Shown here: one piece after another, positions 5,963 to 8,929 of the stretch
How positions within the stretch are numbered: position 1 is the stretch's first letter
Layout: the number at the start of each line of letters is the position of its first letter
Source: Flectonema sp. DT1601
Lineage: Eukaryota
Length of the DNA: 64,000 nt
Assembly (NCBI GenBank): GCA_964019425.1
Contig: OZ025800.1
Location: 1 to 64,000 of the forward strand
Reading direction: 5' to 3'
Program-made: the position numbers and the translations under genes
Notes under the pieces: generated by a model
What the model saw: only the letters and a program-made list of their open reading frames with translations
What the model was told of the DNA's origin: nothing
Databases searched by the model: none

Positions 5963-8929
5963 TCACGAAGGGGTAATGGGAAAACGGCACCGCATGCTTG
6001 TACAATTGCATGTTCGACCACGGCCTAAAATCGGCCGGGGGAAAGGTTGGCACCGTAACACCACCACCACATCGCGAGTCAGAAAGGCCCTCACCGCAAG
6101 TTCAACTTCCCGCTGATGCTCCGATGAGCCTATAACTCCTGGATCCACCCTCGATGGCAAGTCTGCTGGGTTCAGCGCTGACTTCACATAAGCAATACAG
6201 AAACTAACCTTTCTGTCTGCCAGCACATCGATGGCCTGCACGACCGCATCGTTCAGCCGTTGCGATCGGACTGACATCTTCTTCCGTGCTACGCCAATGA
6301 CTGACGTGTTGTCGATCCAGATGGACATTCGTTTGCCATCACAGCAAACCGGCATCCCCGAGACCGTGTTCCTGAACGCCATCCCCTCGAGAACATTGAT
6401 GTGGAGCGACTGTTCCGAAGGACCCCACGCATCCCCCAAGACAGTAACCTCGGCCGTCCTGTCGTTCACAACCACTCCACCCCAACCTCTCAACGACGCA
6501 TCCACGAACGTCGTGAACTCATCCTGATCTGGCTCCCGCGCAACCACCCTCCTCGTCACAGCGGCAGCCGACCAACTGCGCAACTCCATCGCGACCGAAA
6601 CAGGGACCGACACTACATCATGCACCTGCCTCACCCCGCGGTTCAAACCGTTCGACAACCTCCGCAAGAACTTCAAGGCATACCAGTATTTCCCCGGAGA
6701 CGCCGCAGCGATCGCCGACGCATGCATCAGCCTCCCAGCCATCGACTCCAACTGACTCGCCGTCACAGACGACAAGTCCACCGCCGCCAACTTCCGCCGG
6801 ATCTTCGCTGACGGCATGACCGACGACGCCTCGTGGTCAAAGTCCACACCCAAAAATGTGTACTTGCTCACCGCCGTATTCGAGTCAGACGGCTTCCATG
6901 TAAGACGGAAGTCCGCCGCCGCAGCATCGAGATTCACCGTCGCCGCCAACACCGCGCCTTCCGTCCCCGTGTACCGAATGTTGTCGATGAACACGTCAAC
7001 GCCAACATCCCTGGCAGCCCACTGACGTCGCACGTAAGCTGGATCCCCCGCAGCCGCCGCTGCCAAAGAGTGCATCAGCTCCGGCGCGCAGACATGCCCC
7101 ATCGGCAAACGGCACAGCTCGAACCATTCACCCTCCGTCGTCTTGAATCGGAAGAGATCTCTCGCTTCCTCCGGGATTTCAATAGCATAAAAACCTGTCT
7201 TGAAATCCCGTGTCGAGCCAACCTCGGTCAGAACCCGATCCAAATATTTTGAGATGTGGAACAGCGGGACGTGAGCTTCGTAAGCTTCTTCGGCCCAACC
7301 ATTCGCATCCCTCGTCCAAAGGATGAACCGCTGCCGCAGTCCCTCCGGCTTCTCCTCCACCACGGTGAATGGAACGTTCACCGCTCTCCCCGGTCCACTC
7401 GCAGCTCGCGCGATCCCGTTCCTCAGCAACTCCGCAGCGTGCCTCCCAGCGAAAGATGAAGTAGACGACGAGCGACTCAACTTCCCCACCTCCGGGTAAA
7501 AGGTCAAGTTCCACACCTGATCGAACCTATCCCTCGCAACATCAGTCATCCTACTTCTGAGTCCGTCAACATCCATCGTCTCAACGCCACTCACATGCAA
7601 AGGCGACGAACGTTCCTCCGCCGTCGACGGCAGTCTTGTCCGCTTGCCCCTCCTGATGATGCTGTGCGTCGTGCACGGAGACAGCCGCGCCACCGCTTCC
7701 ATCGCCTCACCTTCGTCGTCAACGTCCTCCGCAACTACAGCAGGATGGTGACCTTCCACGTTTGCAGCGCTCGGGCGGTGTCCACGAAATCCGACGAATA
7801 CCTGATCGTTGTTGCAGAGATGTTGGTTCCGTCTTCGGCGTGCTTCAACAGTCGTGATACCAGGTACCCTTCTGTGAGCCTTCCCTCGGCCATCGCTCGC
7901 ATCAAAGCCGCGGCGGCGCCTCGTTTTATCGAGTGGCCCGTAAAACCCCGCATTCCCGGAGTCCCCCGCCACAACTCTGCCAACCGCTCGGTGGTGACAT
8001 CCGTCAGCCGATCGAAAGGAGCCAGCTCCCGAAACAAGCTTGCGATCTCCCCGACCAGATCCCCCCGCAAGACCGCCCAACGGGACGGCACGAACGGGTT
8101 TGCTCTCCGGTGTTTTGGCGACGTCCCCCAGTCCACGATCACTTCCGCGTCCTCCACCAGAACGAAATGCGCCGACGTCAGCACGTGCACTTCTCCCCAC
8201 CGGGAAGCCGACTTCCAACACACCAGCGCCGCGAGCCTCAAACGTCCCGTTAGACTTCTCGCCCAACCCAACAGCTGCTCCTTTGACATGGGAACTGCTT
8301 GCGAACGCGGAACGGCCGCCCCTTTTGCCCTCAGCGCGCTTGCCAGGCTGAGGAGCGGTTGGTTTTCCAGACCAAGGTGTCGGTAGATCCCGGACAGCGC
8401 CTTTGCGTATTGCAGCTGTCCCTGCGGTCTCACGTCTGTGGCCAGCACGAACAACGCAGCTGTTTCGGCAGACATTGGCAGACGCTGAGCCAACGCCCAT
8501 TGTTCCAACCGACCCCAGAGGTTTCTGCGTTTCGACGAGGTTTCGTCCGCCCACATCGACGCGACGACCACCCCCAGGCGCTCCAACGCTGTGTCGTGGT
8601 CCACCCTTACTTCCATCGTGTCTCCACGGTGTCGATCGTCCCTCCGGATGTGTTCGAGGACCACCTTCCCGAAAACCGACGGAACTTCCACCTGCGCAGC
8701 GCATCTTCGTTTTCGGAATCCCTCTCGCGTACTCGCGCAAGGTCCCGGTGCGGCGACACTCGTTGACCCACGCTGCACTCCAGCTGGCACCGCGCCGACC
8801 AGGAGAGGCCGCGGTCCACTTGCCGCCCCTCCTCCCGCGACGCCCTCTACGGGTTCGTTTACGGCCAGGATTCAATTCCCCCGACCACGCCCCCCGTTTT
8901 TTGGAAACTGTTGTTGTGGCTGCTGCCAA
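5963..8929 (-). CDS. Reverse transcriptase + RNase H (pol) of family 1
   Basis: RT motifs DFKTGFYAI, LPMG, VFIDNI, FLGV. DIRS-type RNase H motifs FVDAS, HINVLE, IDNT, NPADLPSR. The 5' part overlaps the YR ORF in another frame; listed start is TTG. Confidence 0.92.
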   Translation of the reverse strand: MAAATTTVSKKRGAWSGELNPGRKRTRRGRRGRRGGKWTAASPGRRGASWSAAWVNECRRTGTLREYARGIPKTKMRCAGGSSVGFREGGPRTHPEGRSTPWRHDGSKGGPRHSVGAPGGGRRVDVGGRNLVETQKPLGSVGTMGVGSASANVCRNSCVVRAGHRRETAGTAAIRKGAVRDLPTPWSGKPTAPQPGKRAEGKRGGRSAFASSSHVKGAAVGLGEKSNGTFEARGAGVLEVGFPVGRSARADVGAFRSGGGRGSDRGLGDVAKTPESKPVRAVPLGGLAGGSGRGDRKLVSGAGSFRSADGCHHRAVGRVVAGDSGNAGFYGPLDKTRRRRGFDASDGRGKAHRRVPGITTVEARRRRNQHLCNNDQVFVGFRGHRPSAANVEGHHPAVVAEDVDDEGEAMEAVARLSPCTTHSIIRRGKRTRLPSTAEERSSPLHVSGVETMDVDGLRSRMTDVARDRFDQVWNLTFYPEVGKLSRSSSTSSFAGRHAAELLRNGIARAASGPGRAVNVPFTVVEEKPEGLRQRFILWTRDANGWAEEAYEAHVPLFHISKYLDRVLTEVGSTRDFKTGFYAIEIPEEARDLFRFKTTEGEWFELCRLPMGHVCAPELMHSLAAAAAGDPAYVRRQWAARDVGVDVFIDNIRYTGTEGAVLAATVNLDAAAADFRLTWKPSDSNTAVSKYTFLGVDFDHEASSVMPSAKIRRKLAAVDLSSVTASQLESMAGRLMHASAIAAASPGKYWYALKFLRRLSNGLNRGVRQVHDVVSVPVSVAMELRSWSAAAVTRRVVAREPDQDEFTTFVDASLRGWGGVVVNDRTAEVTVLGDAWGPSEQSLHINVLEGMAFRNTVSGMPVCCDGKRMSIWIDNTSVIGVARKKMSVRSQRLNDAVVQAIDVLADRKVSFCIAYVKSALNPADLPSRVDPGVIGSSEHQREVELAVRAFLTRDVVVVLRCQPFPRPILGRGRTCNCTSMRCRFPITPS
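7735..8871 (-). CDS. Tyrosine recombinase of family 1 (same frame as gag, after one TGA)
   Basis: Catalytic residues R (SASRWGEV), K (SPKH), HxxR (GHSIKRG), H (LKH), Y (TIRY). The frame is open from the gag stop onward; true start unknown. Confidence 0.9.
   Translation of the reverse strand: MLAVNEPVEGVAGGGAASGPRPLLVGAVPAGVQRGSTSVAAPGPCASTREGFRKRRCAAQVEVPSVFGKVVLEHIRRDDRHRGDTMEVRVDHDTALERLGVVVASMWADETSSKRRNLWGRLEQWALAQRLPMSAETAALFVLATDVRPQGQLQYAKALSGIYRHLGLENQPLLSLASALRAKGAAVPRSQAVPMSKEQLLGWARSLTGRLRLAALVCWKSASRWGEVHVLTSAHFVLVEDAEVIVDWGTSPKHRRANPFVPSRWAVLRGDLVGEIASLFRELAPFDRLTDVTTERLAELWRGTPGMRGFTGHSIKRGAAAALMRAMAEGRLTEGYLVSRLLKHAEDGTNISATTIRYSSDFVDTARALQTWKVTILL

What the first reader, a model, noticed from the sequence alone, without database searches (positions are those of the whole stretch)
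8860..8910. Double recoding hub in family 1: -1 frameshift into pol plus stop readthrough into YR
Seen in sequence (minus strand): gag reads ...CCA AAA AAC GGG GGG CGT GGT CGG GGG AAT TGA ATC. A_AAA_AAC (8902-8896) is a correctly phased canonical -1 slippery heptamer. The -1 frame (KKRGAWSGELNP) is the RT ORF, which has no AUG at this point. About 7 nt downstream, a stem GUGGUCGGG/CCUGGCCGU can form with the stop codon in its loop. The YR ORF is in the gag frame, with only this one TGA (8874-8872) between them. Inference: one mRNA could give Gag, Gag-Pol (frameshift) and Gag-YR (UGA readthrough) from a switch of about 30 nt.
Basis: partly seen in the sequence, partly recalled or inferred. Interest (0 to 1): 0.85.

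Follow-up and report, generated by a model that had tools for sequence, protein, structure and literature searches.

The report
Three-way recoding switch in VIPER retrotransposons
A telomere-inserted jumping gene carries, at the end of its gag gene, a slippery site, a predicted hairpin and a single stop codon that likely let one RNA make three proteins (Gag alone, Gag fused to reverse transcriptase by a frameshift, Gag fused to recombinase by reading through the stop), and the same layout recurs in distant relatives, including trypanosome VIPER elements.

Summary
The element is a VIPER-like tyrosine-recombinase (YR) retrotransposon. A second family in the window and 10 of 13 metagenomic relatives share the junction: 12 loci, 9 lineages, median YR identity 26%. 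All 12 have a phased slippery heptamer 15-51 nt before a UGA (0 of 12 in the other phases), YR in the gag frame directly after that UGA, and a -1 frame free of stops across YR (6-15 expected). Five kinetoplastid VIPERs read by eye from a paper's supplement show the same heptamer-UGA-YR layout. A predicted helix starting just after the heptamer encloses the stop in 11 of 12 folds (Fisher p 0.008). Gag-Pol by -1 frameshift is about 90% likely. Gag-YR by UGA readthrough is about 70% likely: the stop is always UGA, followed by C in 8 of 12. Against readthrough, the window's context is UGA-A, no structure 3' of the stop was found, and T. cruzi has AUGs at the stop, so reinitiation or splicing remain open. 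No RNA or protein evidence was available. My literature searches found no report of this switch.

The parts
11070..11280 (-). Split direct repeat A1 (5' end of family 1 element)
   Evidence: copies at 5547-5757 and 17484-17694
8872..11058 (-). Family 1 gag-like ORF, 728 aa, long poly-Gln tract, ends at TGA
   Evidence: C-terminal region resembles family 2 Gag by position only; no Pfam hit
8896..8902 (-). Slippery heptamer A_AAA_AAC in gag phase
8863..8886 (-). Predicted 8-bp stem with the UGA in its 8-nt loop (extendable by 3 pairs to start 6 nt after the heptamer)
   Evidence: prediction only
8872..8874 (-). Single UGA between gag and YR, context UGA-AUC; predicted readthrough site
7735..8871 (-). 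Tyrosine recombinase ORF in gag frame, 378 codons, first AUG 8616; predicted C-terminal part of a 1107-aa Gag-YR
5963..8965 (-). pol ORF in -1 frame: about 410-codon linker overlapping all of YR, then RT and RNase H; predicted Gag-Pol about 1698 aa
5389..6056 (-). 3' split repeats B1 (6056-5758), A2 (5757-5547), B2 (5525-5389, cut short by the terminal repeat array)
15414..16760 (-). Family 2 gag-like ORF
15453..15459 (-). Family 2 slippery heptamer U_UUU_UUA in gag phase, 36 nt before the stop
15414..15416 (-). Family 2 UGA, same AAU-UGA-AUC context as family 1
14358..15413 (-). Family 2 YR ORF in gag frame (40% identical to family 1 YR)
12640..15495 (-). Family 2 pol ORF in -1 frame, 951 codons, opens 79 nt before the stop
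1..5390 (.). Terminal 8-mer repeat array (telomere-like); shorter arrays flank each element

Best explanation
The junction likely works as a three-way translational switch on one mRNA of a VIPER-like retrotransposon: most ribosomes would stop at the UGA and release Gag, some would slip -1 at the heptamer to make Gag-Pol, and some would read through the UGA to make Gag-YR. Shown in sequence: the frames, the phased heptamer, the single UGA, the open -1 frame and their conservation. Predicted: a helix that starts a few nt after the heptamer and closes 3' of the stop, which would pause ribosomes at the slip site. Inferred: the two recoding events, a near-cognate tRNA (Trp or Cys) at the UGA, and the purpose, which is to set low enzyme-to-Gag ratios and bring both RT and recombinase into the particle as Gag fusions. 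The pol linker overlapping YR is likely only kept open. Split estimate: frameshift 0.9, readthrough 0.7.
For: (1) Heptamer in gag phase 12-54 nt before the stop in 12 of 12 loci: 11 with a canonical one, L008 only G_GAU_UUU, a known umbravirus shift site. Other two phases 0 of 12; background 9 of 4035 gag positions; per-locus chance under synonymous resampling 0.02-0.21. Six different heptamers occur, so the signal is kept while its letters change. (2) -1 frame has 0 stops across YR in 12 of 12 (L013 counted to its internal frameshift); 6-15 expected; open in at most 2 of 2000 resamplings; the +1 frame holds 6-38 stops. It opens only 46-286 nt before the gag stop. (3) 23 of 29 database RT proteins with a long N-terminal extension carry the -1-frame image of the YR WK..RW motif (the 23 include the window's two families). 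(4) The stop is UGA in 12 of 12 (9 of 9 lineages, p 0.003 at background 0.53). It is followed by C in 8 of 12, with exact type II motifs UGA-CUA/CGG in 3. (5) The stretch from stop to first YR AUG (19-85 codons) is open in frame 0; product of probabilities 0.003 over 9 lineages given the pol protein. (6) Folding in the 70 nt after the heptamer: mean z -1.95, p 0.001; control windows show none. A basal helix encloses the stop in 11 of 12 MFE folds, Fisher p 0.008, controls 4 of 48 at p<0.1. (7) By eye, 5 of 5 kinetoplastid VIPER sequences have a phased heptamer, 21-42 nt spacer, UGA-A and YR in gag frame. T. cruzi has a perfect 10-bp helix starting 6 nt after the heptamer and enclosing the stop; the junction recurs at 14 places in the supplement.
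Against: No RNA, ribosome or protein data. The window's context is UGA-A, which in yeast is less leaky than UGA-C although it favours Trp-tRNA (abstract). No structure 3' of the stop beats shuffles (mean z -0.13), unlike type II readthrough cassettes. The window's own two junctions fold no better than shuffles at 70 nt (z -0.1, +0.6), and family 2 lacks the enclosing helix (p 0.5); only 2 of 12 loci reach p<0.05 singly. The first 110 nt after the stop show no clear third-position bias in frame 0. T. cruzi has an AUG overlapping the stop in the -1 frame and another directly after it in frame 0. Every YR ORF has an AUG upstream of its conserved domain. D. papillatum gene models join Gag, YR and RT in one chain by joins I could not inspect.
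Confidence: 0.66

Rival explanations
1. Gag-Pol is made by -1 frameshift, but YR is made as a free protein by termination-reinitiation at or near the UGA, or from a downstream AUG (internal initiation or a spliced-leader RNA).
For: T. cruzi has AUG directly after the stop. Both window families and one Crithidia copy have near-cognate AUC there, and two loci have CUG. All YR ORFs have an AUG before the conserved domain. Reinitiation after a long ORF is known for the retrotransposon SART1 and needs downstream structure (passages). The host is probably a euglenozoan, where trans-splicing is routine (for trypanosomatids).
Against: In 10 of 17 junctions the codon after the stop is neither AUG nor one base from it. 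First AUGs lie 19-85 codons away in the 12 loci, beyond the about 20-30 nt range of TURBS reinitiation. It does not explain invariant UGA, UGA-C enrichment or the open frame-0 linker. The window's linkers are poorer in U-rich tracts (7-8 T per 20 nt) than the gag starts (11-12) and 9 of 11 host genes (10-16), though L007 and L008 reach 11-12.
Confidence: 0.2
2. Splicing (cis or spliced-leader trans) produces separate or fused mRNAs for YR and RT, and no recoding is needed.
For: Three D. papillatum gene models encode Gag-YR-RT in one chain with identical joins. Host genes in the window appear to have short introns (read-through stretches).
Against: The YR-RT join of those models drops the catalytic Tyr, as expected of a predictor's invented intron (inference). 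Splicing gives no reason for phased heptamers in 12 of 12 or for 280-430 codons of open -1 frame across YR.
Confidence: 0.07
3. Pol starts by stop-start reinitiation at the N-UG codon that overlaps the UGA (AUGA-type), and the heptamer is incidental.
For: AUGA occurs in T. cruzi and one Crithidia copy. AUGA overlaps are used by caliciviruses.
Against: The overlapping codon is GUG, CUG or UUG in 12 of 12 scripted loci and never AUG; N-UG is forced by any UGA. Heptamer phase is 12 of 12 against 0 of 12.
Confidence: 0.05
4. The UGA is a nonsense mutation in a once-fused gag-YR ORF, and the heptamer and open frame are chance features of GC-rich DNA.
For: The element is about 60% GC. Single-ORF TATE copies exist in B. 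saltans.
Against: Same stop, position and frame relation in 9 lineages at median 26% YR identity and in kinetoplastids. Resampling nulls reject chance.
Confidence: 0.02

Closest known systems
VIPER retrotransposons of kinetoplastids (Ribeiro et al. 2019, PMC6681497)
   Same: gag, YR, RT/RH order with YR and RT/RH overlapping; split direct repeats A1...B1 A2 B2; by eye the same heptamer-UGA-YR junction and shared YR/RT motifs
   Different: Host is outside kinetoplastids (nearest named relatives are Diplonema papillatum). No CCHC box in the window's Gags. The passages read treat the three ORFs as separate and give no expression mechanism.
TATE of Leishmania braziliensis
   Same: YR retrotransposon with split repeats, associated with telomeric repeats; phased A_AAA_AAC at the gag end
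   Different: By eye, the TATE heptamer abuts a UAA, ORF2/YR is in the -1 frame, and a second phased heptamer precedes the YR domain. That suggests two successive frameshifts rather than frameshift plus readthrough.
Retroviral gag-pol recoding: HIV-1/RSV/MMTV -1 frameshift; MuLV UAG readthrough
   Same: Heptamer classes, 3' structure at 5-9 nt, Gag fusions at low ratio
   Different: Each uses one kind of recoding at a junction; MMTV uses two frameshifts at separate sites. The review section on combined recoding lists no case of frameshift and readthrough branching from one gag end into two different enzymes.
Type II readthrough (alphavirus, tobravirus UGA-CUA/CGG; PMC3159437)
   Same: UGA; exact motif in 3 of 12 loci and UGA-C in 8 of 12
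   Different: The window has UGA-AUC, and no 3' stem-loop signal was detected after the stop
DIRS-1 and Ngaro YR retrotransposons
   Same: Overlapping YR and pol ORFs; Ngaro has the same split repeats
   Different: Ngaro order is gag, RT/RH, YR; DIRS-1 has inverted repeats and a methyltransferase domain

Membership tests
VIPER-like YR retrotransposon | Three ORFs gag, YR, RT/RH in that order, YR and RT/RH overlapping | tested here: met
   definition
VIPER-like YR retrotransposon | Split direct repeats A1 ... B1 A2 B2 | tested here: met
   family 1 B2 is truncated to 137 nt, family 2 is complete
VIPER-like YR retrotransposon | Tyrosine recombinase catalytic residues (R, HxxR, H, Y) | tested here: met
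   Motifs conserved in alignment A6; residue roles recalled. Library support is weak: Pfam Phage_integrase in 1 of 20 members, PDB integrases E 0.03
VIPER-like YR retrotransposon | No methyltransferase domain | tested here: met
   No such Pfam hit at E<=0.1 in 7 proteins; a weak negative
VIPER-like YR retrotransposon | No target-site duplication | tested here: inconclusive
   Flanks are tandem repeats
VIPER-like YR retrotransposon | Falls in the VIPER clade in RT or YR trees | not tested
   No named kinetoplastid VIPER was in the tree; motif likeness by eye only
TATE | Insertion in telomeric repeats | tested here: met
   All copies are flanked by the terminal 8-mer repeat
TATE | Long ORF2/YR in a different frame from gag, as in L. 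braziliensis | tested here: not met
   Window YR is in the gag frame and about 350-380 aa; TATE read by eye, 982-aa alignment
Canonical -1 programmed frameshift | X_XXY_YYZ heptamer in the upstream frame with the -1 frame open | tested here: met
Canonical -1 programmed frameshift | Stable structure 5-9 nt downstream | tested here: inconclusive
   Significant over 12 loci, marginal for family 1, absent for family 2; pseudoknots not modelled
Canonical -1 programmed frameshift | Transframe product | not testable with these tools
   Needs reporters or proteomics
Type II stop-codon readthrough | UGA-CUA or UGA-CGG | tested here: not met
   Window is UGA-AUC; met in 3 of 10 metagenomic loci
Type II stop-codon readthrough | 3' RNA structure after the stop | tested here: not met
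   Mean z -0.13 in 70-nt windows; long-range stems of 100-200 nt were not tested
Stop-codon readthrough (general) | Single in-frame leaky-type stop conserved between two coding regions | tested here: met
   UGA in 12 of 12 plus 5 of 5 by eye; frame-0 linker open

The most novel reading that the evidence does not exclude
A large, mostly undescribed clade of VIPER-like retrotransposons (about 1500 representatives at 50% identity) shares one RNA element that sits between a slippery site and a UGA, folds over the stop, and partitions ribosomes three ways. The same structure stimulates the -1 shift and, once unwound, governs readthrough, with euglenozoan hosts using a UGA-A (Trp-tRNA) leak in place of UGA-C. 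This would be a natural case of frameshift and readthrough branching from one gag end into two different enzymes.
Probability: 0.4. Interest if true: 0.9.

Novelty: new variant of a known kind. Interest (0 to 1): 0.8.

Why it matters
The papers read describe three overlapping ORFs in YR retrotransposons but not how they are translated. This junction gives a precise, testable answer for the VIPER group, including potentially active copies in trypanosomatids. It adds a recoding architecture absent from the review passages read: one cassette of about 30-70 nt, three products. It also predicts natural -1 frameshifting and UGA-A readthrough in euglenozoan nuclear genomes, and explains why about 400 codons of an apparently junk frame stay open across the recombinase. 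Current annotations (separate ORFs, or chains joined by presumed introns) would be wrong.

Tried and rejected
No whole genome is held, so other copies in the host could not be aligned.

No RNA holder was listed. Contigs laid on family 1 gave one related copy in X1, which may be the source sample. Its 11 substitutions in the dual-coding part make no stop in either frame, but the contig ends at the heptamer. Family 2 had no usable cover.

Three scans of viral contigs found nothing. Of its 13 loci, 3 were dropped before counting: L004 (too little sequence upstream), and L011 and L012 (broken frames, no junction found).

The search for long natural Gag-YR fusions found none (weak). Among the best 150 of 1504 representatives I read 7 long ones; only a D. 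papillatum gene model held Gag, and its joins cannot be judged without DNA.

Covariation of the helix could not be scored: the alignable clade is nearly invariant there and other lineages do not align. The UGA-A versus UGA-C label does not form clades.

Earlier scan findings: none. One supplement part was truncated and useless. Kinetoplastid junctions were read by eye only, so they are outside all statistics, and their -1 frames were not checked, apart from T. cruzi's listed 948-aa RT/RH.
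Full report
Observation. All features described are present at the stated coordinates. The window begins with 5.4 kb of an 8-mer terminal repeat, into which two full elements and several fragments are inserted. Family 1 (11280-5389, minus strand) has split direct repeats A1...B1 A2 B2, a 728-aa gag-like ORF, one TGA, a 378-codon YR ORF in the same frame, and a 1000-codon -1 ORF with RT and RNase H that opens 91 nt before the stop. The stem is in the MFE fold with UGA in the loop, but it beats shuffles only in the shortest window.

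Second family in the window. Family 2 (about 49% GC in YR, 40% identical YR) has the same layout with a different heptamer, U_UUU_UUA, 36 nt before the stop, and the same AAU-UGA-AUC context.

Relatives. The nearest named homologues are from Diplonema papillatum, so the host is inferred to be a diplonemid or close relative; host genes were not tested. A metagenome scan gave 13 YR loci (half the collection scanned). Ten have an intact junction and three were dropped. With the window's two families this gives 12 loci in 9 lineages, median YR identity 26%. A heptamer lies in gag phase 15-51 nt before the stop in 12 of 12, against 0 of 12 in the other two phases and a background of 9 in 4035 positions. 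Eleven have a canonical heptamer; L008 has only G_GAU_UUU, and in L013 that is also the likelier site. G_GAU_UUU is a known umbravirus shift site (passage). The -1 frame has no stop across YR in any locus, with 6-15 expected, while the +1 frame has 6-38. Among 78 RT homologues, 29 have a long N-terminal extension and 23 of these carry the -1-frame image of a YR motif. The 6 exceptions include D. papillatum models with Gag-like sequence in frame with RT.

The stop. It is UGA in 12 of 12 (p 0.003 for 9 lineages), whereas YR and pol end in all three stops. The next base is C in 8 and A in 4; three loci have the exact type II readthrough motifs (passages). The stretch from the stop to the first YR AUG is 19-85 codons and is open in frame 0 more often than expected (product 0.003). 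No structure 3' of the stop was detected. Third-position bias, clear in the YR domain, is not evident in the first 110 nt after the stop.

Structure. The 70 nt after the heptamer fold better than shuffles across loci (mean z -1.95, p 0.001), while four control regions do not. In 11 of 12 MFE folds a helix starting within about 7 nt of the heptamer pairs with sequence 3' of the stop; the combined p is 0.008 and only 2 loci are significant singly. Family 2 is the exception. Covariation could not be scored.

Kinetoplastid elements. I read by eye parts 1-3 of 6 of the VIPER supplement and part 1 of 4 of the TATE supplement of PMC6681497. All five distinct VIPER sequences (Bodo saltans, three from Crithidia fasciculata, Trypanosoma cruzi) have a phased heptamer, a 21-42 nt spacer, UGA-A and YR in the gag frame. 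One Crithidia copy matches family 1 closely (21 nt, UGA-AUC, stop in a hairpin loop), though its heptamer is a pure A-run. T. cruzi has a perfect 10-bp helix enclosing the stop, and the junction recurs at 14 places in another supplement file. It also has AUGs in both frames at the stop, which favours the reinitiation rival. L. braziliensis TATE differs, and appears to use two successive -1 shifts. Unread parts and five unreadable alignment files may hold counter-examples.

Mechanism. Most likely one mRNA yields Gag (728 aa), Gag-Pol (about 1698 aa, by -1 slip) and Gag-YR (1107 aa, by readthrough) (lengths). The frameshift rests on the standard signal plus strong conservation (0.9). Readthrough rests on the invariant UGA, UGA-C enrichment, same-frame layout and open linker (0.7). 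In yeast UGA-A favours Trp-tRNA but is less leaky than UGA-C (abstract), so the window's context is the weak point. Rivals are reinitiation or internal start for YR (0.2), splicing (0.07; three D. papillatum models join all three proteins, but the YR-RT join drops the catalytic Tyr), stop-start initiation of pol (0.05) and chance (0.02). No expression data were available.

Literature. Ten full-text searches were run, and none surfaced a paper on recoding in VIPER or other YR retrotransposons. What I saw: PMC6681497 abstract, sections 6-7, term passages and the supplement parts above; term passages of PMC12278014, PMC8547959, PMC8226300, PMC3266345, PMC3783388, PMC7192593, PMC5633606, PMC8310308, PMC3159437, PMC12440569, PMC10275272 and bioRxiv 2024.03.25.586562; passages and one part of PMC5009743 (first 300,000 characters held; no mention of DIRS or VIPER); abstract of PMC4748822. 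Lorenzi et al. 2006, Poulter and Butler 2015 and Repbase entries were not available and could mention the heptamer or the stop.

Verdict. A real, conserved feature of a VIPER-like element. It is a new variant of known recoding mechanisms, with a combined architecture not found in the sources searched, and it is directly testable. Interest 0.8.

Noticed in passing
window 1-5390, 11280-11815, 17042-17164, 17694-17943, 20572-20743: The terminal repeat is an 8-mer (CCCGCAAA)n, unlike the TTAGGG recalled for most euglenozoans. All element copies sit in it at what looks like a fixed position, with CCC at the junctions, consistent with site-specific YR integration.
   Followed up: partly
PMC6681497 supplementary file 2, L. 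braziliensis TATE: By eye: a phased A_AAA_AAC directly before the gag UAA leads -1 into ORF2, and a second phased A_AAA_AAC lies before the YR domain with the -1 frame open across it. This suggests a double frameshift as in MMTV.
   Followed up: partly
window 17163-17694 and 17934-18382: Solo repeat units without ORFs, resembling the SIRE derivative of VIPER or solo AB repeats of Ngaro
   Followed up: no
window 18590-20410 and 20755-20842: 5'-truncated third copy related to family 2 (RT intact), and a short gag fragment 76% identical to family 1 cut by the repeat array
   Followed up: no
window 9599-9789: Family 1 Gag has a long poly-Gln tract (more than 55 Gln) within a Gln-rich coiled-coil-like region
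   Followed up: no
proteins P0047, P0051, P0086 (D. papillatum), P0082: Predicted proteins with Gag-like sequence in frame with RT and no trace of an overlapping YR: possibly a subfamily with a natural Gag-Pol fusion
   Followed up: partly
The YR family is large: 1504 representatives at 50% identity with E<=0.001, mostly unannotated, so VIPER-like elements likely extend well beyond kinetoplastids
   Followed up: no
L001-L003, L006-L010, L013 gag ends: Nine of the 10 metagenomic Gags end in a CCHC-like zinc knuckle shortly before the heptamer; the window's two Gags and the L005 tail shown lack it
   Followed up: no
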